DNA of 64,000 bases, from positions 51,150,001 through 51,214,000 of the forward strand of contig OZ024740.1 of assembly GCA_964016885.1 (NCBI GenBank), read 5' to 3'. Below are positions 11,173 through 60,073 of this stretch, piece after piece. The stretch comes from Eledone cirrhosa. Its lineage: Eukaryota. Each line of letters opens with the position of its first letter. Position 1 is the stretch's first letter. Made by a program: the position numbers and the translations under genes. The notes beneath the pieces were generated by a model, which saw nothing but the letters and a program-made list of their open reading frames with translations, did not search any database and was not told where the DNA came from.

Positions 11173-11260
11173 GCTTCCTGAAGAATCCGGCGCTCGAGTT
11201 TATATAATTATTACATAATTATTGGAAAACTCAAAACACGGACGAAACCATGATAGAGGT
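11173..11260 (+). ncRNA. Type I hammerhead-like motif with long stem II, degenerate
   Basis: GCTTC CTGAAGA a TCCG..GAGTTT..AAACTC..CGGA c GAAAC-catg-aTA GAGGT. Confidence 0.6.
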
Positions 11261-26687: not shown

Positions 26688-27800
26688 TTTTTATTATGTG
26701 CTGTTACAACATTACCAAGCATGGCTGTGTACAGTGTTGTTTTTGGTGTTCTTATTTCTATTGTATTGAGTATTTATTATGTGCTGTTACAACATTACCA
26801 AGCAGAGCTGTGTACAGTGTTGTTTTTGGTGTTCTTATTTCTATTGTATTGAGAGTATTTATTATGTGCGGTTACAACATTACCAAGCAGAGCTGTGTAC
26901 AGTGTTGTTTTTGGTGTTCTTATTTCTATTGTATTGAGAGTATTTATTATGTGCGGTTACAACATTACCAAGCAGAGCTGTGTACAGTGTTGTTTTTGGT
27001 GTTCTTATTTCTATTGTATTGAGAGTATTTATTATGTGCGGTTACAACATTACCAAGCAGAGCTGTGTACAGTGTTGTTTTTGGTGTTCTTATTTCTATT
27101 GTATTGAGAGTATTTATTATGTGCAGTTACAACATTACCAAGCAGAGCTGTGTACAGTGTTGTTTTTGGTGTTCTTATTTCTATTGTATTGAGAGTATTT
27201 ATTATGTGCGGTTACAACATTACCAAGCAGAGCTGTGTACAGTGTTGTTTTTGGTGTTCTTATTTCTATTGTATTGAGAGTATTTATTATGTGCGGTTAC
27301 AACATTACCAAGCAGAGCTGTGTACAGTGTTGTTTTTGGTGTTCTTATTTCTATTGTATTGAGAGTATTTATTATGTGCGGTTACAACATTACCAAGCAG
27401 AGCTGTGTACAGTGTTGTTTTTGGTGTTCTTATTTCTATTGTATTGAGAGTATTTATTATGTGCGGTTACAACATTACCAAGCAGAGCTGTGTACAGTGT
27501 TGTTTTTGGTGTTCTTATTTCTATTGTATTGAGAGTATTTATTATGTGCGGTTACAACATTACCAAGCAGAGCTGTGTACAGTGTTGTTTTTGGTGTTCT
27601 TATTTCTATTGTATTGAGAGTATTTATTATGTGCGGTTACAACATTACCAAGCAGAGCTGTGTACAGTGTTGTTTTTGGTGTTCTTATTTCTATTGTATT
27701 GAGAGTATTTATTATGTGCGGTTACAACATTACCAAGCAGAGCTGTGTACAGTGTTGTTTTTGGTGTTCTTATTTCTATTGTATTGAGAGTATTTATTAT
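26688..27800. repeat. 85-bp minisatellite, about 13 near-identical copies
   Basis: Unit TTTATTATGTGCGGTTACAACATTACCAAGCAGAGCTGTGTACAGTGTTG...GAGAGTA. ORF starts recur every 85 nt. Confidence 0.97.
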
Positions 27801-30039
27801 TTGCCTGTCATCCTTTCGAGGTCAATAAAATAAAGTACCGGTCAATTACAGCGGCCGATATAATGAACTTTCACTTTCCCCTAAATTACTGGCCTTGTGC
27901 CTAAATTAGAAACAATTATTATTTCTTTGACAGTTTCATGCAAGTTTCTACTGCATCACCAGATTCACCTGTGTATACCTGAGGTGTGCAGCATTGTGTT
28001 CCTATTTTTGTAAGCAGCAGTTGGGTGGTGGAGCTCTAGTATAGACTTTTCTTATAGACTGTACTGCATCAGTCTTATTTTGTTGCTGTTATAATCATTA
28101 TCATCTATAATATTATTCTGCTTATCACTCACTATATGTGTTCGAGTGTTACACTTTCAACAAGCTTAAATATGGAATAAAAGAGAAGACATAATTGAAA
28201 TCTTTAATATAATGAAATGTTCTGGAGATCTTCAAAATAGAAATAACTTTTGTAAAATGGATTGGCAGTATCAGGCGCCATGCTTTCCAATTGAGTTTCA
28301 ACAAAGATCTTAGAGTGAGCACTTTTCTAAGTATATATGCTGTGCAAGACAGAGAGTATTTTGTGATTTGAGGTCTATTTACATAAGATACCCTCTTAGA
28401 TTTAATGGCATTGAGCCTAAAGCTGTGATGACAACTGGAATGATTTTGAAGTTGTTAGGTGCACATCTTCCTTGAGTTGGTGAATGCCTAGAGCCCTAGC
28501 TAGAATGAGCTATGAAGTTCATGTTTCAAAGAATGGCATTAGCATTATTTTATTTTTATAGTTCCACATCTTATATTACATCATCTTTGGATACAGTTTT
28601 CCAAAAGTCCTTTACCCATTTTCTCTCTCTCTTCCTCATACACACACATGTAATGGACCTCTTCACAGTTTCCATCCACCAAAGTCTACTTATAAGGTAT
28701 TGGTCAACTAAAGACTATAGTAGAAGACATTTTACCAATGCACCATACAGTGAGATCAAACACAGATCCATATGGTTCTGAAGCCAACTTCTTAATCACA
28801 CAACTATGCAGAAGTGTCTTATGTAACAAAGTAAATGTGATAAACTATTTGTAAAGAGAATAGCATCTACAAATAGAAGCCTGTGCTTCTGCAGCTTATC
28901 TCCTCCCCTGTGAGACATATCAACACACTTGTTCCTCTCTTGGATTGCACCTTCAACCAATATACCAAATTATTGATGCCTAACTTCAGTGTAAATGAAG
29001 CATATAGTTGATTGAATTAACTCCAGTAAATTATTTGAACTTAGTTTGTTGATACTAGATGGACTAAAAGCATTGTAGTGATGAAAAAGATATTGCCACA
29101 AATAAATTATGAATAATTACTAAGTATATGGAGCTCACCAGATATACTTTGTTACATCAAACACTACTACTGTTTATTATTAGAAAACAGAATTGCAGAG
29201 TGTCAGGTTGTATTGTTCTAGCTGTTTACATTCTCAGTTCAATTCCTGTTGAGATTAACTTAGCTGTTTCCCCTTCCTAGGTTAATAAAATAATGTACTG
29301 GATCAAGTACAGGGGTTGATTTAATCAACTTGACCCACCTCCAAAACTTCTGGCATTGTACTTATGTAAGAAATCACTATTAGGTCGCACTATTGCAGCA
29401 TTAATGTCCTGTGTGCTGTGCCTCAATCTGAGCAATAACATTATTAATTCTATGGCAAGTCCTCCTTTAACCCTTTTATTACCATATGAAAACACTAAAA
29501 GAGACTCTCTATATTTTGGAAATAAGCAATAATTTTGCACTTAGTTAAAAAAACATAAAAGTATTTACATAAAATTATCATGGAGGTTTGTTAATAAATA
29601 TAAACACATTGAAATAGACAGTTTTTTATCATACAACCAGGGACAGTTTCATGTGGTTTGGTATTGAAAGGTTTAACTGCAGCTAAATCACACAGGACAA
29701 ATATAAAAGATTTTTCATGCTAGTATATGAAGACATTAAATGTGAAAAAATCAACCCTCTCAATCATTGTTAATTCTCTTATGTATAACTTCATTGTTTA
29801 TAATTTTTATTTCACTACTAATGTCATGTTCACTTTTCTTTATTTTTAGTTGCATAAATATGAAATTAGTTTCATCTAAAGATTAAAACTGAAAAGTATC
29901 TGGAGATATAATATACAAAATTTTAATTTTTTTAGTTTCTAGGCTCTGTGATCTTTAAGAAAAATGTTCTATTGGTCTATCATACATATTTCCAAATGAG
30001 ATTATAAAATAGGGCACATAAAAGTTCAGAAAAGTGAAA

Positions 30040-41245: not shown

Positions 41246-41538
41246 TGTGGGTATGGTGTGGCGTGCGGTGGCCGGAGGCGGGGGAGTGCTCGACCGGAAG
41301 GGGGTTTGGCCGGAAGGATGCTCGACCGGAAGGGCCAGCAGAGGGCCTCTCTTTAGTGGTGACCAGCAAACGGTGTTAAGCAGTTGGACGCACGTGGAAG
41401 AGGAGTAACCTGCAGTGGAGTTTAGCGGCGCCTACGAAAAGCGGTAAGTGAGATAGCTTTTTCTAACCACAAGCTATTTCGGCGACTGAAAAAAAAAAAA
41501 AAAAAAAAAAAAACACTTGCCGCAAGACAAATCAGGAG

Positions 41539-42300
41539 ATGGCGACAAGACTACGGATGAACGAAGCTATTAGGGCATTTACCGGGGAAGGTGATGTTGT
41601 CGCTTGGCTGCGGAAGGTTCGGCTGGTCGCAAGCTTGCAGAAGATAGAGGACGTGGCCGGCCTCATGGCACTGTACATCGAGGGCGACGCGTTGGTACTC
41701 TTCCTTGAGTTGGACGAGCACAGCCAAAGAGATGCGCAGAAGATTGAGAGGCGTCTGATGGATGCATTCGCCGAGGGACCGTTGGCGGCTTTTGCTAAGC
41801 TGGCGAGAATCAGGTGGAATGGTGAGCGCGTCGACATTTTCGCAGCGGAAATACGGCGGTTGGCCATGTTGGCCGGTTACCAGGTGGAATGCGAACGCAC
41901 GGTGCGGTTGGCGTTCATCAATGGATTTCCGGACGACATAGCGGTGAAACTGCAGCAAGTCCCGGGTTATAAAGAGATGGAAATGCGTTCACTGGTGGAA
42001 CAAGCCCGGATCATAGCGGAAGATGCCAAAAAGAGTGTTGCGGCGATAGCAACTACGGAGGCTCAGGACACCTGGCAGCGAAATGGTGAAAGGGAGGCAA
42101 CCTCGGCACACGGCCGCCCGCGTGCGTTTAGAGGGCGCTGTTTTCGGTGCCAGGGCTCGCACATGGCTAGAGACTGTAGAGAGTCGAAGCCGGAGATAAT
42201 TTGCTACCGGTGTAAGCGACCAGACCACATCGCTACTAACTGCGACCAGGGAAACGATCCAAGGGGAACTACTGCGCCGGTAGTTGCCCCTTACGAGTAG
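41539..42300 (+). CDS. Retrotransposon Gag with two CCHC zinc knuckles
   Basis: Open 253-aa ORF containing CFRCQGSHMARDC and CYRCKRPDHIATNC. Confidence 0.9.
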   Translation: MATRLRMNEAIRAFTGEGDVVAWLRKVRLVASLQKIEDVAGLMALYIEGDALVLFLELDEHSQRDAQKIERRLMDAFAEGPLAAFAKLARIRWNGERVDIFAAEIRRLAMLAGYQVECERTVRLAFINGFPDDIAVKLQQVPGYKEMEMRSLVEQARIIAEDAKKSVAAIATTEAQDTWQRNGEREATSAHGRPRAFRGRCFRCQGSHMARDCRESKPEIICYRCKRPDHIATNCDQGNDPRGTTAPVVAPYE

Positions 42301-42306
42301 CGGCGC
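42249..42306 (+). promoter_or_regulatory. -1 programmed ribosomal frameshift signal (G GGA AAC plus H-type pseudoknot)
   Basis: Heptamer is in the correct Gag phase with a 5-nt spacer. Stem AAGGGG-AACTAC / GTAGTT-(G)-CCCCTT. Loop GCGCCG is complementary to downstream CGGCGC (42301-42306). The -1 frame is open into the protease. Confidence 0.8.
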
Positions 42307-45125
42307 TGCCCGTGGTAGAAGTCTTCGTGAGGGGGAAGCCACAGCGAGCCCTCGTGGATACGGGCTGTACGACGACACTGGTGACCGCGGGGGTGGAGCA
42401 GAGGTGGGGAGGGAAGAGCAGTGTAAGGGCAGTCGACGGCAGGAAAATTGAATTCCGAGGTCGCAGCGAGATGGAAATAGCGGTATGGGGAAGGAGGATA
42501 AGGCTTTCCGCCATCGTGGTAGCCAGTGTGGTGGATGGGATCGGCGTGGTTATGGGCATGGACGCGATTGGCCGTCTAGGGGGCGTCACGGTGAACAATG
42601 TTGGTGTGTCGTTTGGCGCCGCTGCATCGGTATGCGCTGTGAGTGCACGTCATGAGAACCAGAAGGCCCACGAGGAGGAATACCCCGCTTACACTGTACA
42701 GGACAAAGACTTCAAGGCCGTGTTTGATGGGCAGCGATGGGTTGTTGAGTGGTACTGGAAGGGAGAACCACCAACACTGAAGACCAAAGTGGGCTGCTAT
42801 CAACACACATTGAAGGGAAACGCTAGGAGCGAGTTCGAGCGAGAAGTAGAGAGATGGATCGAAGAGGGCATACTGCTTCCCTGGAAGGAGGAGGTGAAGT
42901 GCGGAGTATTGCCGTTAATGGCGGTGGTGCAACCCACGAAGAGCAAGGTGAGGCCGGTGCTGGACTATCGGGAGCTGAACGAGCACGTGTCATGCCACAC
43001 GGGTGGCGAGGTCACGGATGTCTGTGGGGAAATCCCTGCGTGAGTGGAGACGCATGACGGGGGATTCAGCGATCGTGGATCTAAAGTCGGCTTACTTGCA
43101 GTTGCATATAGATGAGAAGCTCTGGCGGTATCAGCTGGTCAGGTATAAGGGCCGGACATATTGCCTGACCAGGCTCGGTTTCGGGCTGAGCTCCGCACCG
43201 AAGATCATGGCGGCGGTCCTCAAGACCGCTCTGGGGAGGGCCGACAAGATAAAGAGGGCTACTAACTCCAATATTGACGACATCCTAGTGGACAAGTTGG
43301 TGGTGTCGACGGCGGAGGTCACGAGCCATTTGCGGAGGTATGGACTGACTGCGAAGCCATCAGAAGCATTGGAGGGAGGAGCCGCGCTGGGACTTAGGCT
43401 ACGGCGAGACAAGACGGGCGTTTTGGTGTTCCAGAGGGGAAACGAAGTTCCGGAACTGGGCCCAAGTATGAGTAGGCGGGAGCTTTTCTCGGTGTGTGGA
43501 AAGCTGGTGGGTCACTGCCCGATCGCTGGGTGGCTCCGGGCGGCATGCAGCTATGTCAAGAGACGAGCGGGAGGGGTGACCTGGAGTGACGGAGTGGGAG
43601 AGAGGACGGTGGTCATGATGCAGGAGATCATGGGGAGGGTGAAGGCCGACGACCCAGTGCGGGGACACTGGTATGTTCCCAAATCACAGAGCGGGACCGT
43701 ATGGTGCGATGCCAGCAGCATAGCGCTGGGTGTCACGTTGGAGATAGGATGTGTTGAGGTCGAGGATGCAGCCTGGCTTATAAAGAAGGACGACTGCAGC
43801 CACATCAATGTGGCCGAGCTGGACGCGGTGTTGAGAGGGGTGAACCTCGCCCTGCGGTGGGGGCTGCGCACCATCGAGATACACACCGACTCGTCTACTG
43901 TACTCGGATGGGTAAGATCAGTGCTCACCAGTGAGAAGAGAGTGCGAACGAGAGGCGCGGCAGAGATGCTGATAAAGCGCCGCCTGGGAACGTTAGGAGA
44001 GCTGGCCACCGAGTTCGACCTGAAGCTGAGCGTAGTGTTCGTGCCCTCAGAGAAAAATAGGGTGGACATCTTAACTAGAGTGAAGAAAGCCTGGATGGAA
44101 GCGCCGGAGGAGGTAGAGGATGAGATAGCTGCCGTGTGTCGGCTGACCGAGTCAGACCTGAAGGGGTTGCATGACATGCACCACATGGGGGTGGATAGGA
44201 GCCTGTTCCTAGCCAGGAGAATCGACTCGGACGTTAGCAGACACAGTGTTCGGGGGTGGTTAGAGGCTGCGTCCGATGTCAGTCCATTGATCCCGCCCCG
44301 GGTGTACACGAAACGGGAAGCCTCCCGGTGGATCGCGACTGGAAGCGATTAGCGGTGGATGTGACGCACTACCGGCAGGGAAAGTACCTCTCGATGGTCG
44401 ACTGTGGACCAGGTCGAATGGCGATATGGAGGGAGATGAGGACTGGAACGGCCGAGGAAATCGTGCGGACGTTGAGAGAGGTGTTCTTGGAGCGGGGCCC
44501 TGTGGACGAACTGCTGATGGACAACAGCGCAGCGTTCCGCTCGGAGGCACTGAGGGAGATGCTCGATGGATGGAAGGTGGACCGTTTCTTCAGAGCGGCG
44601 CACAGGCCGAGCGGGAATGGAATCGTGGAGCGACACCACCGGACAATCAAGGCAATGGCGGAGCGGGGCCATATCTCACCAATGGAGGCAGTGTTCTGGT
44701 ACAATATGTCCCCTCGGGTTGGACAGGTCGAGGAATCGGTGCCACACAGAGCAGTATTCAAATACGAGTGGCGGCACCCGTGCACGCCACCACAACGGCC
44801 AGTTGGGAGAGAGAGTGCATTCGTGCAGGTGGGCGAAGAAGTCTAGGTTAAGCCCCCAGATGCACGTTGCACATCTCAATGGGGAAGAGGAACGGTGACG
44901 GCCGTAAATTCAAAGATCAATGTGTCCGTGGACGGGGTACCACGTCATGTCCTGGATGTAAGAAGAATCACTGTGTCGACGGACTCCGAGGAAGAGGAAA
45001 CCCAAGATGAGGTGGAAACCCAGAGCTCTGCCCCAATACTACGAAGATCGCAACGAAGTCGTAGACCACCAACCTGGACAGCAGACTTTCATATGCAGAG
45101 GGACGAGGGGGAAATTGATCTTTGA
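42249..45125 (+). pseudogene. Retrotransposon Pol (protease, RT, RNase H, integrase), disrupted
   Basis: Motifs LVDTG (protease), DLKSAY...GFGLSSAP...NIDD (RT, Y>N), WCDAS...HINVAEL...HTDS (RNase H), HxxHH/CxxC with D..D..E (integrase). Frameshifts near 43030 and 44255, stop at 44844-44846. Confidence 0.9.
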
Positions 45126-55213: not shown

Positions 55214-56369
55214 AGATGGTCATGCCGTCTGGCCGTTTGCTGTCCCCTCAGTCCAGCCCCACCAGCTCCAACTGGGATGGGAAGCCTGCAGCATCCAAGC
55301 CATGCTTTATGACCTCGTTGAGGGCAGCCGGCACTGTAGCAACAGGAAAGTGGGTCGAGGCTGAAAGAGTCCACGGTGGACGTCTACTGGGTTATGTCCG
55401 AGCTAGTCCCACGTCTCGCAGGTGGCCTCACGTTCCTCGATCATAGAGGCTCCCATTGTGTTTAGGAGAACCCTGCTGACGAGGACGCATAATGAAGTTA
55501 CCGACCAAGGCCACCATATCTAACAGGTAAAGTGACCATGGAATGTCGTCAAACCTGATGTTGCATATCTCCTCAGCTGCCGCTCGGATACAAGTGTCGA
55601 GGTCAGCGAGGAGAGATGCGTGGCTGTAGCATGGAGCACTGTGAAGGATATAGAGGAGCTTCAGCATGGTGAGTTCTGGGTGGTTGTCAATCATGCCCAG
55701 TCAGCTCATGAGCGTCTTGAGTTACTGGAGCCTGGACCTGATGGTGGAGCGGATGACCGGCGGGTGGATAGGTGACCCGAGGATGAGGACATCCTCTTTG
55801 GGGGGTCACCTGTACCTGGTGGAGAATGGGTCACACGTCCAAGACGGAGGCTGCAAAGCTCTCAGCATCATGGTTGACATTCATCACCTGCGACTTGGAT
55901 GAGTTGACCTGGAGGCGGATTCCCGCCTGAGCAGGAACCGCCAATTGTAGGTCGTGGCAGACAGTCTCTACAGGCCTGCCCAACGTAGCATCATCCAGGT
56001 ACCAAACGTTGAGAGGGGCCATGATACACCGGGCAATGTGGTCTATGCCAAGAGCAAACAGGAGGGGGACCCAAAGGGTCGCCTTGTTGGACCCCAGTGG
56101 CTGAAGGTATGACCATATCAGCAGCAAGGAGCATGGTCAGGGCTCTATATGACAGGTAGACCAGCAGGTAGGCAGATGGGGTTTTGCTGAGACAGGCATA
56201 GAGCAGATGGTCATGGCATGTGCAGTTGAAGGCATTCCTCATGTCAAGCTTGACAATGAGGCGCCTGGAGTCCTTGGATGCTGGTTCTGGTGGGTAGCTA
56301 TTGAAGAACTGCTTGGTTACATGTGCGGGCCCCTCATAGCCACTGGACAGAGCTGCTCCCCCAGTTCCG

Positions 56370-56373
<4 letters not shown>
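55214..56373 (-). mobile_element. Decayed CRE-like non-LTR retrotransposon (RT plus restriction-like endonuclease)
   Basis: Motifs KLDMRNAFN, GVQQGDPLGP, LLFAL, VWYLDD and KLLYILHSAPC. C-terminal AALNEVIK...KRPDGMTI is an RLE PD motif. 5' end abuts a (TA)n tract. Confidence 0.75.
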
Positions 56374-56430
<57 letters not shown>

Positions 56431-57252
56431 TATATTGAAGAACTCAATGTAATCCATATGTTGAAAATGTTGTAGGTTAAAATAAATCCTGGAAAACAAT
56501 AAACATTAAAAGGAAAACAGAGTTAAAACAATGAAATAAAAAATCAAGTCATTAGAAATATACTTCACTGCTTTATGATCGTTTCTAGATGATGATAATA
56601 CATTGTAACTATACTTCGATATCGATCTATGTAAGGTTAGTTACAAAATATAAGATAAAGAGAATATTTACTTACATGCATATCACCAGCTGTTGTCAAA
56701 AGCAATAATAATTTTATTCAAAATTAGCAGTAAATTAGTATTATGTTTAGTTCTATGACCTTGTTTGGAGGTAGTTGAAGAACTAACCAATCAGATTGTT
56801 TTTTTCCATATGATGTTAAGATGAAAAATAATTCACTTTAGTTGAGGTCATGACCCTTTGAAAGGAATGGTTGAATGGTGTTAATAACAGAATTGCCATA
56901 AAAAATCTATTAGGAAGAAAGGGATTGTCAAATTGATAGTTGAATGTATATGGTATAGTGAAGTTTAAAAGGAATGTAAAAATTAAATGTTGAGTTGTGT
57001 TGTATGGAGTTTTTAGGCGAATATAAATTAAGGTCATGGCTTGGAAAGATAGTATATTAAAAGATGAAAATTATAATAAGATAATGAAATATAGTAATTC
57101 AATAATATAATATAATGTAACACAATATAGTACGGTGTGGTATCGATATCGAAGTATAGTTACGATGTATTATCATCACCTAGAAACGATTGTAAAGCAG
57201 TGAAGTATATTTCTGATGACTTGATTTTTTATTTCATTGTGTTAACTTATCC

Positions 57253-57599
57253 TCATCATCATTTCATCATTTCATTTTACGTCCGCTGTTTCCCTGCTTG
57301 CAAGGGTGCGACAGGAACTGATTCTGGCTTGATTTTTACAGCTGGATGCCCTTCCTAACACCAACCTCATTTACAGTGAGTGGTGGGTGCTTTTTTGTCG
57401 TGGCACCTACACGTCCACTTTGCAGTGGAATGATAGGAACCCCAGTCCCTACCATCTCATTTCTACAGCTGAGTAAACTGGAGCATTGTGAAAATAAAGT
57501 GTCTTGCTCAAGGAAACAACACATTGCCCGGTTTGAGAATTGAACTCACAACCTTTCGATTGCAAGGCCAATGCTCTAACCACTAAGCCATGTGCCTCC
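57253..57599 (-). mobile_element. tRNA-derived SINE, family A
   Basis: Reverse-complement match to 1181-1525. Confidence 0.88.
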
Positions 57600-57822
57600 A
57601 TATATATATGTGTGTTTAATGGTAGCTATGGTGCTTCCATAGGCAGTATGCCAGTTGAGCACTCTATGTTCTTACAGAGCAGAGTGTGATGCATACAGAG
57701 CAGAGTGTGATGCATCCAGACTCAGTTTATTGAGTGTTATAATTGTTTCGCCGGCAGATAGCTCGAGACATGATCATTGTATGGATCTGCCTGATTCTAA
57801 AATTTGCTCCGAAAGCATTGCA

Positions 57823-57912
57823 TGTGTCCGAAGAACCCGCAGTTATAGAATCAGGCAGATCCATACAATGATCATGTCTCGAGCTATCTGCCGGCGAAAC
57901 AATTGTAACACG
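57823..57912 (+). ncRNA. Type I hammerhead-like motif with CCGAAGA core and minimal palindromic stem III
   Basis: TGTGT CCGAAGA a CC..GGCAGAT..ATCTGCC GG c GAAAC-aatt-GTA ACACG, followed by AATAAA. Confidence 0.7.
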
Positions 57913-58090
57913 CAATAAACTGAGTCTGGATACATCACTGATTTTTCGTTTTTTTATATTACAAATATACATATATATATATATATACATTCCTTGTTCG
58001 ATACTTATACCAAAAGCTTATGATTTTTTATAAGCAAACAGTATTATTGATTTAGGTGTCGCTGAAACCCTATATCGGATTTTACCATCA

Positions 58091-58538
58091 GTTGGAGAGG
58101 TGTAAGCGTGTGAGGTCGGAATTTATCAAGTGGTCCCAGGTTTTTCTAGGTCTGCCTACTCCATGGCTACCGTCTATTTTTATCACCCTGCACTTTTTTA
58201 TACAGCTGTCGTCTTTCATGCGCATCATGTGACCATACCAACGTAGTCTTCTCTCGAGTAAACAACATCTGATTCCTCTTATTCCTAATTTCTCCCTTAG
58301 TTCATTTATGCTTTGCTGTTCACGTATATTACTATTACACATCCAACAGAGCATGCAAGCTTCGTTCCTCTCCAGTCTGCGTATATCCTCTGCACACAAT
58401 GCCCAAGTCTCACTGCCATGTAACATTGCTGTTCGTATGGAGGCATCATACAGCCTGCCTTTCATTTTTAGAGAGAACCCTTTAGCGGCCAATAGTGGTA
58501 TAAGCTCTCTGAACTTTTCCCATCCCGTTCTGACTCTA
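58091..58538 (-). mobile_element. RTE LINE C-terminal fragment
   Basis: KGRLYDASIRTAMLHGSETW...GRPRKTWD. 5' break at (TA)n. Confidence 0.88.
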
Positions 58539-58564
58539 TATATATAAATGTATATGTGTATATA

Positions 58565-58607
<43 letters not shown>

Positions 58608-58669
58608 ATATATATATGTATGTGTGTATATATATATATGTGTGTATATATATATGTATATATACATTA

Positions 58670-59798
58670 TTATTAGTTATAGCGCAACTAATCAGAGAGC
58701 GAATTGATCTAGATGAAATGCAGTTTGGGTTTGTGTCAGGTAAAAGTACCACCGACGCTCTTTTCCTTGTACAAAAACTACAAGAGAAGTACCTACCTAA
58801 AAGTAAACCTCTCTACTTAGCTTTTGTAGACCTGGAGAAAACTTTTGACAGAGTCCCCCGCTCCATTATCTGATGGGCTCTTAGAAAACTAGGTGTAGAT
58901 GAATGGCTTGTGAGAGCTATACAAGCTATGTATAAAGAAACAGTCAGTAAGGTTAGAATTAACAATGAATATTGTGAAGAGTTTAGTGTAAAAGTTGGCG
59001 TTCATCAAGGCTCTGTCCTTAGCCCCCTCCTATTTATTATTGCCCTTCAGGCTATAACAGAGGCGTTAAAGACCAGCTGCCCATGGGAACTCCTATACGC
59101 AGATGATCATAGCTGAATCAATGGCTGAACTAGAGAAGAAATTCGAAACATGGAAGCATGGCCTAGAATCAAAAGGCCTTAAAGTTAACTTGTCTAAGAC
59201 TAAAGTTATAGTTTGTAGAAAGGAAAATAGGGCACAGGTGCCCTCAGGGAAATGGCCATGCTCAGTATGTAGGAAAGGAGTAGGCAGAAATTCCATTTTA
59301 TGTCCCAAATGCAAAGTATGGGTACATAAAAGATGTAGTGGGATCACAGGTAAGCTATCCAAGAACGTAGACTTTATATGTGGCCAATGGTCAGGTGCAA
59401 TAAGTAACAAGTGTCCAAAGGATACTAGCTCCTTCTATTGCCCAGATGGTTCTATAGAAATAGTAGACACTTTCCGTTACCTGGGTGACGAAATCAGCAG
59501 TGGTGGAGGGTGTTCTGAAAGTACAGTAGCTAGAGTCAGAACGGGATGGAAAAAGTTCAGAGACCTTATACCGCTGTTGGCCACAAAAGGTTTCTATCTA
59601 AAAATGAAAGGCAGATTGTATGATGCCTGTATACAAACAGCAATGCTACATGGCAGTGAGACATGGGCATTACGTGCAGAGGACCTGCGTAGACTGGAAA
59701 GGAACGAAGCATACATGCTCCGTTGGATGTGTAATAGTAATATACGTGAACGGCAAAGCATAAATGAACTAAGTGAGAAATTAGGAATAAGAGGTGTG
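58670..59798 (+). mobile_element. RTE LINE RT fragment with a Cys-rich insert
   Basis: Motifs QFGF...FVDLEKTFDRVPR, GVHQGSVLSPLLF, LLYADD, then CSVC..C..C..H..C..C and HGSETW. Confidence 0.9.
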
Positions 59799-60073
59799 TA
59801 ATAATATTGATATGTATATATACATATACATATAAATATATACATAGATATATGTATATAAACATACATATACACACACATATATATATATATATGGTCA
59901 CAGCCATCATTGGCTGTGACCTCTTCAGGCAGTTCGAATTGGTGTGGTAGAAACAGGTACACATGTTGCTAAAGTGTTTTACTCCGTCACTACTCCGATA
60001 TGTCCAGCTCCTGGTTGGGTTGTTATTTCTCTGAGGAACTGGAATCACAAACAACCAACATATACTCAAAATG

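What the first reader, a model, noticed from the sequence alone, without database searches (positions are those of the whole stretch)
57707..57938. Near-intact CCGAAGA hammerhead sequestered by a 93-bp antisense copy of itself
Seen: arms 57707-57799 and 57846-57938 are near-perfect inverted repeats. The loop plus right arm form a hammerhead: TGTGT/ACACG stem I, CCGAAGA core, GGCAGAT/ATCTGCC within stem II, and GAAAC-AATT-GUA followed by AATAAA. The palindromic CAATTG stem III is the type known to work through dimeric hammerheads. Inference: a Penelope-style inverted pLTR. A read-through transcript would form a long hairpin that blocks the ribozyme and could be a substrate for ADAR or Dicer.
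Basis: partly seen in the sequence, partly recalled or inferred. Interest (0 to 1): 0.75.

Follow-up and report, generated by a model that had tools for sequence, protein, structure and literature searches.

The report
Inverted Penelope end with variant hammerhead
This hairpin is the cut-short end of a common jumping gene (a Penelope-like element) lying back-to-back with a partial mirror copy, a layout likely made during insertion and seen at many other sites, and its self-cutting RNA motif carries a family-wide core change that probably weakens it, so the site is ordinary and only the variant ribozyme is of modest interest.

Summary
The inverted repeat and the hammerhead-like motif are real. 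The locus is a 163-bp 3' end (pLTR) of a Hydra-clade Penelope-like retroelement, joined 5'-to-5' to an inverted ~190-bp partial copy that carries the element's 'tail'. The left arm thus starts near 57610, not 57707. [quoted passage not shown] At least 626 copies match one exact pattern. Inversions are common: 14 of 60 sampled copies have one, 8 covering the ribozyme. In 41 of 43 back-to-back pairs the tail is at exactly one end, which points to an integration by-product rather than an evolved ribozyme lock. The core is not a near-intact mutant: C in place of the canonical U4 is the family norm (30 of 30 flank-selected copies). One subfamily has A6U; another has the canonical U4 plus an extra A. 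Inverted pLTRs, one-sided tails, dimeric PLE hammerheads and siRNAs from Penelope inverted repeats are published, and the scan reported this system elsewhere in this genome. Cleavage, editing and dicing are untested.

The parts
57799..57961 (+). 5'-truncated 3' end (pLTR) of a Hydra-clade Penelope-like element, ending at 3'-end site 1 (no tail)
   Evidence: 163 nt at 96.9% to copy L021; site 1 is the end of 28 of 60 copies
57610..57799 (-). Inverted partial copy: from inside stem II through the 3' half of the ribozyme and the tail to 3'-end site 2; 1-nt overlap with the right copy at 57799
   Evidence: alignment to L021; site 2 is the end of 25 of 60 copies
57610..57690 (-). PLE tail: the 5' UTR sequence that follows the pLTR in a full-length copy, ahead of the ORF start
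   Evidence: in L126 the same sequence runs on to the ATG at 2482 and the ORF
57673..57714 (.). 21-bp tandem duplication at the site of a microhomology (ATCAC) deletion in the inverted copy
   Evidence: family D12; alignment
57824..57911 (+). Type I hammerhead-like motif: stem I GTGT/ACAC, core CCGAAGA (U4C), A10.1-C11.1 mismatch, long stem II, GAAAC-AATT-GUA; predicted cut after 57907
   Evidence: catalysis not tested
57835..57895 (+). Stem II: ~60-nt bulged hairpin with compensatory changes between subfamilies
   Evidence: 7 pairs changed on both sides, 2 of 500 shuffles as high
57899..57906 (+). Palindromic stem III ACAATTGT, predicted dimerisation helix
   Evidence: cofold of two copies pairs it intermolecularly
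57707..57938 (.).
57914..57919 (+). AATAAA, nearly invariant in the family; role as a poly(A) signal untested
57962..57990 (.). (TA)n-rich flank, the likely insertion target; a short (TA)n also lies at 57600-57609; no target-site duplication discernible

Best explanation
The locus is a 5'-truncated insertion of a Hydra-clade Penelope-like retroelement whose two back-to-back arms were likely made in one integration event, and whose hammerhead-like motif has a family-wide U4C core that is probably weak. Shown: identity of both arms with the element's pLTR and tail; RT and GIY-YIG ORF in longer copies; two discrete 3' ends; tail at exactly one end of back-to-back pairs. Inferred: the element's protein, probably as a dimer, nicked both strands of a (TA)n target. 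It primed one cDNA at each of two internal start sites of the RNA (site 1 for the right arm, site 2 for the left). Both stopped after under 200 nt and were joined 5'-to-5' over 1 nt. Any read-through RNA would fold into a ~93-bp duplex that removes the ribozyme fold, but this is a side effect. The lone motif would need a partner in trans to cut, and the family amplified with C4 and, in one subfamily, A6U.
For: Upstream walk from the repeat to RT and GIY-YIG ORF pieces. L126 has pLTR, tail, then ORF. Hydra motifs seen: RW, DKT, CxCX5C, CxxC and CxH. 3' ends at two sites, 28 and 25 of 60. Tail at exactly one end in 41 of 43 divergent pairs, 50% expected, P 1e-10. Inverted fragments within 800 bp upstream in 14 of 60 copies. 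Both arms share an A>G allele found at no other locus held at that point. C4 in 30 of 30 flank-selected loci and 93 of 100 listed rows read by eye; A6>T in 9 of those 100. Published: inverted 5'-truncated copies and one-sided tails; two RT start sites, a predicted dimer and hammerhead-independent insertion in vitro; low activity of PLE hammerheads.
Against: Clade assignment rests on motif comparison by eye: Pfam gave 0 families for 4 ORF pieces, the homologue search gave no hit, and no protein tree was built. Stem II covaries and one subfamily has the canonical U4 plus an extra A (11 of 12), which suggests selection still acts on the motif. Mismatched 10.1-11.1 pairs are common in Hydra hammerheads listed as canonical, and a U4C viroid ribozyme works in vivo, so 'weak' is inferred. 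Run X1 holds this locus's junctions with little signal from other copies, compatible with transcription. Twin priming is inferred from end statistics only.
Confidence: 0.85

Rival explanations
1. Same origin, but the U4C hammerhead is a working, protein-assisted or dimeric ribozyme in the element's life cycle, and the long stem II compensates for the altered core.
For: Stem II covariation. N7, the free core position, differs between subfamilies (A or C). GAAAC and GTA both intact in 22 of 30 flank-selected loci, with scattered losses and no subfamily-wide change seen. U4C is tolerated in a viroid. The Anolis PLE hammerhead cuts only with the element's protein.
Against: A6>T recurs as a subfamily trait (9 of 100 rows). 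The hammerhead fold is 3.8 kcal/mol above the minimum-energy fold. RNAalifold did not recover the fold. Hammerhead mutants did not affect insertion in vitro, and Naiads lack the motif.
Confidence: 0.3
2. The by-product hairpin has become a host-used dsRNA: it lies in a transcript and is edited by ADAR or diced into siRNAs that silence the family.
For: Very stable duplex. X1, an 87.8-Mb contig set of unrecorded kind, has exact pieces across the locus-specific junctions and along 56440-58120. siRNAs map to inverted Penelope regions in transgenic Drosophila.
Against: X1 is not on record as RNA and gives no strand. No A>G difference was listed. No host exon was found by Pfam in 145 window ORFs or 128 downstream ORFs. 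8 of 60 sampled copies have the same arrangement, so nothing singles this locus out.
Confidence: 0.15
3. It is a MITE or a microRNA-like hairpin, and the hammerhead words are chance.
For: Long near-perfect inverted arms; weak Rfam miRNA hits far below gathering score.
Against: Other copies are asymmetric, 5'-truncated to variable length and linked to an RT ORF. No target-site duplication. A sister subfamily has a canonical core.
Confidence: 0.01

Closest known systems
Hydra clade of C-terminal EN+ Penelope-like elements, e.g. Hydra-1_Obim (Craig et al. 2021, PMC8557442)
   Same: RT then GIY-YIG; RW, DKT, CxCX5C, CxxC and CxH motifs; (TA)n targets; pLTR with a hammerhead; inverted 5'-truncated copy; tail at one end.
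   Different: About 5.3 kb or more against generally <3 kb; long low-complexity insertions in the RT-EN linker; 2.4-3.6 kb microsatellite-rich 3' UTR; ~75-80 nt tail against 30-40; hammerhead with C4 and a ~60-nt stem II, whereas all Hydra cores listed in File S2 read CTGAnGA with short stems.
[quoted passage not shown]
   Same: Type I topology, 4-5 bp stem I, tiny palindromic stem III, dispersed single copies, opposite-strand pairs 100-700 bp apart.
   Different: U4C; no nucleotide between 9 and 10.1 except in one subfamily; G10.1-C11.1 in only 4 of 53 copies; stem II far longer than 7-8 bp.
Poseidon_Ac tail and internal RT initiation (Frangieh et al. 2024, PMC11167929)
   Same: Tail equals the sequence between two discrete 3' ends just downstream of the pLTR; AT-rich targets.
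   Different: There the ORF starts inside the hammerhead; here the ATG lies about 45 nt beyond the tail. Different clade.
U4C viroid hammerhead (Ambros and Flores 1998, as cited in Perreault et al. 2011, PMC3088659)
   Same: Same core substitution; reported as low activity in vitro yet sufficient in vivo.
   Different: A viroid variant, against a trait fixed in hundreds to thousands of genomic copies. The primary paper was not held; only the citing passage was read.
siRNAs from inverted Penelope copies in Drosophila (Rozhkov et al. 2013, PMC3681739)
   Same: Inverted copies as a dsRNA source.
   Different: Shown there; untested here.

Membership tests
EN+ Penelope-like element | Single ORF with RT and GIY-YIG endonuclease | tested here: met
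   ORF pieces with YRDD and VY...YIG in longer copies. Recognised by eye against published alignments; Pfam 0 of 4. The copies shown were broken.
EN+ Penelope-like element | pLTR: 3' end repeated ahead of the ORF in partial tandem | tested here: met
   L126: pLTR 2210-2345, tail, ATG at 2482
EN+ Penelope-like element | Variable 5' truncation, inverted 5' copy, tail at one end | tested here: met
Hydra clade | C-terminal EN; RWK-type motif; DKG changed to DKT; CxCX5C linker; CxxC and CxH around E and N | tested here: met
   RMKWRAF or RMRWRAF, SDKTGN, CNCRAGTQC, CRLC..E..N..CRH; the motif reads RWR/KWR rather than RWK
Hydra clade | Insertion in (TA)n | tested here: met
   flanks of most copies printed; not counted formally
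Hydra clade | Phylogenetic placement of the RT | not tested
   no protein tree with reference families was built
Hydra clade | Generally <3 kb with a canonical hammerhead (typical, not diagnostic) | tested here: not met
   about 5.3 kb or more; C4 core
Canonical hammerhead ribozyme | Core CUGANGA | tested here: not met
   C4 at this locus and in 30 of 30 flank-selected loci; met in a sister subfamily, 11 of 12
Canonical hammerhead ribozyme | GAAA, A15.1-U16.1, NUH triplet, three stems | tested here: met
   Stem II covaries. Stems I and III were fixed by the search pattern in that alignment, so they carry no covariation evidence.
Canonical hammerhead ribozyme | Self-cleavage | not testable with these tools
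   needs an in vitro assay or raw RNA reads
MITE | Symmetric copies with terminal inverted repeats and a target-site duplication | tested here: not met
Non-LTR retrozyme | Non-coding tandem repeats, each with a hammerhead | tested here: not met
   copies are dispersed ends of a coding element

The most novel reading that the evidence does not exclude
A retroelement family that spread to over a thousand copies with a fixed U4C hammerhead kept working by dimerisation, a 60-nt stem II and its own protein, and whose subfamilies form a natural series (C4, C4+A6U, C4+G10.1, U4+extra A) that lets one test directly whether ribozyme cleavage matters for Penelope-like transposition.
Probability: 0.25. 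Interest if true: 0.6.

Novelty: new variant of a known kind. Interest (0 to 1): 0.3.

Why it matters
The locus itself matters little: it is one of probably hundreds of like inversions. The family is of modest use. Whether PLE hammerheads need to cut is an open question, and this family offers natural core variants on one scaffold. The strict one-sided tail (41 of 43) is clean genomic support for two-site priming during integration.

Tried and rejected
MITE or miRNA: rejected. Protein-coding constraint on the pLTR, suspected from apparent third-position changes: rejected, with 12, 11 and 14 variable columns at codon positions 1, 2, 3. RNAalifold on A1 gave a near-empty consensus (-1.96 kcal/mol) and did not recover the hammerhead. 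Pfam on 4 element ORF pieces: 0 hits. Homologue search with the EN region: none. Host gene: Pfam on 145 of 198 window ORFs and 128 ORFs in the next 40 kb gave only transposon-type domains; short exons would be missed. Sequencing runs: no RNA holder listed. X2 and X3 had no cover at 57694-57719 and X1 had a low-depth contig over the loop; neither can be interpreted from contigs. ARAGORN found no tRNA at 56000-60000. Papers: the DOI I recalled for Lunse et al. 2017 and PMC147498 were not held, so a prior report of U4C in PLE hammerheads is not excluded. Searches for a prior report: 'hammerhead ribozyme'+U4C+core gave 1 paper; CCGANGA+hammerhead 0; octopus+Penelope+hammerhead 5, of which one relevant; Penelope+inverted repeat+siRNA+ADAR+virilis 0. 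Earlier scan notes near the locus and by sequence: none.

Full report
Observation. The stretch folds at -172.6 kcal/mol, z -23.

What the sequence belongs to. A search of the 3.0-Gb own genome with 57815-57940 gave 2057 first-look candidates, of which 40 were scored. Exact patterns gave 509 matches and 626 matches, with 0 in the reversed controls. The 30 closest copies share the 3' end and are truncated to variable length at the 5' side. Walking upstream through copies crossed a microsatellite-rich 3' UTR and reached a GIY-YIG-type nuclease. Ten 9.9-kb stretches showed RT pieces ahead of it (output cut; the copies shown are broken). Copy L126 has pLTR, tail and an ATG at 2482 followed by the ORF. 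ORF end to pLTR end is 2.4 kb in L123 and 3.6 kb in L124, so the element is about 5.3 kb or more.

Clade. The pieces carry RMKWRAF, SDKTGN, CNCRAGTQC and CRLC..E..N..CRH. These match the Hydra-clade diagnosis in Craig et al. 2021 (PMC8557442; passages, section 11, supplement parts 1-2 and a supplement search read) and resemble Hydra-1_Obim by eye, but the hammerhead listed for that family is different. Against: Pfam found nothing in 4 pieces, the homologue search found nothing, and no protein tree was made.

Anatomy of the locus. The right copy (57799-57961, +) is 163 nt of pLTR at 96.9% to L021. The left copy (about 57610-57799, -) runs from inside stem II through the tail, with a microhomology deletion and a 21-bp duplication. 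The copies overlap by 1 nt. Both carry an A>G allele seen at no other locus held, which suggests one template and one event.

How the inversion arose. I fetched 60 loci from the listing: 59 of the first rows in order, leaving out the window's own row and one row adjacent to another, plus one later row chosen for its divergent stem. Of these, 28 end at site 1 and 25 at site 2, about 80 nt further on. 14 of 60 have an inverted fragment within 800 bp upstream, and by my reading of the coordinates 8 overlap the ribozyme. Among 43 divergent pairs from 41 loci (tail-selected loci L061-L090 left out), 41 have the tail at exactly one end, 2 at neither and 0 at both; 50% would be expected by chance, P 1e-10. 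This locus obeys the rule. Published work describes inverted 5'-truncated copies and one-sided tails, and two internal RT start sites bounding the tail, cleavage of both strands and a predicted dimer for the Anolis element (PMC11167929, parts 1-2 of 4 read). I infer two-site priming, one site per strand. An earlier scan note prompted this test.

The ribozyme. With patterns that fix the flanks and leave the core free, position 4 is C in 30 of 30 loci. In the 100 listed rows, read by eye, it is C in 93, T in 4 and A in 3. G5>A occurs in 6, so the scattered T fits CpG decay. N7 is A or C by subfamily, and A6>T recurs in 9 of 100, mostly with one shared upstream signature. GAAAC and GTA are both intact in 22 of 30. 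A sister subfamily reads CTGAAGA plus an extra A in 11 of 12, which ties the motif to canonical PLE hammerheads (PMC4209133, parts 1-2 of 4 read).

Stem II. On 53 sequences (the window plus 52 of the 60 loci, 8 with indels dropped), a ~60-nt stem II has 7 pairs changed on both sides (shuffles 2.8, 2 of 500 as high) and 25 such cells (0 of 500). The control ignores relatedness, the structure came from this window's fold, and RNAalifold did not find it, so support is moderate. The closing pair 10.1-11.1 is G-C in only 4 of 53, but U-U and U-C occur there in published Hydra motifs.

History of the core. In trees of 85 and 94 copies, the second with core columns removed, the U4+A group nests among C4 lineages. 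The trees are unrooted and the bootstrap had not settled, so a return to the canonical core is likely, not shown. U4C is reported to lower activity in vitro yet allow viroid infectivity (PMC3088659, passages and section 8 read; the primary paper was not held).

Sequestration, ADAR, Dicer. The hammerhead-competent fold evaluates at -19.4 kcal/mol against -23.2 for the best fold, and two copies cofold through ACAATTGT. The long duplex would dominate in a plus-strand read-through RNA. A minus-strand RNA has no 5' core and reads AUA at the cut site. Run X1, 87.8 Mb of contigs with library not on record, holds exact pieces across the locus-specific junctions and along 56440-58120 with no joints. 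Its summed depth over the element stays in the hundreds, against tens of thousands in X2-X4. That is unlike a whole-genome library and compatible with a transcript, but kind and strand are unknown and no A>G change was listed, so it is a weak hint. siRNAs from inverted Penelope copies are already described (PMC3681739, passages).

Verdict. The locus is an ordinary inverted PLE end. The family is a long, previously unlisted (in the papers I could search) Hydra-type family with a fixed non-canonical core. bioRxiv 10.64898/2026.07.22.740005 (part 1 of 5 read) was used only for the retrozyme definition; its supplements were closed and Lunse et al. 2017 was not held, so either may already list such variants. 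The scan reported Hydra-clade hammerheads, inversions and end rules elsewhere in this genome. Interest 0.3.

Noticed in passing
window 11173-11259 (+): Another hammerhead-like motif: CTGAAGA, A, TCCG...CGGA, C, GAAAC-CATG-ATA. Long stem II and the same A-C at the base of stem II; the triplet reads AUA.
   Followed up: partly
window 58091-59801: Fragmented LINE with RT and PHD-like pieces and its own 264-bp inversion (58275-58538 / 59531-59794).
   Followed up: partly
window 56521-57247: 106-bp inverted repeat, 94% complementary, 515 nt apart; MITE-like or another inverted PLE end.
   Followed up: no
window 57270-57598 (-): SINE-like repeat with a weak tRNA-like head (Rfam tRNA 28.4 bits, below 29) directly left of the insertion; very high depth in X1.
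   Followed up: partly
window 41467-44846 (+): GC-rich LTR-retrotransposon-like gag/pol ORFs in pieces, recognised by eye.
   Followed up: no
window 26690-27804: 85-bp tandem repeat, 13.1 copies, 99% matches.
   Followed up: partly
L126 2358-2400 and 2443-2465: A small hairpin follows each of the two 3'-end sites (-6.6 and -6.9 kcal/mol for the folded windows), as an earlier scan note described for other families.
   Followed up: partly
L005, L007, L009, L018, L020 downstream flanks: Ends of other hammerhead-bearing families sit in the (TA)n runs next to copies of this family.
   Followed up: no
L096 and L100, 3' UTR: A short unit of the 3' UTR has expanded into a tandem array of over 1.4 kb in two copies.
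   Followed up: no
L264 298-3295 (+): LINE with endonuclease, RT and PHD-like domains about 16 kb downstream of the locus.
   Followed up: no
window 56440-58120: Run X1 covers this stretch with locus-matching contigs and one A>C difference at 56912; an unidentified transcript may run through here.
   Followed up: partly
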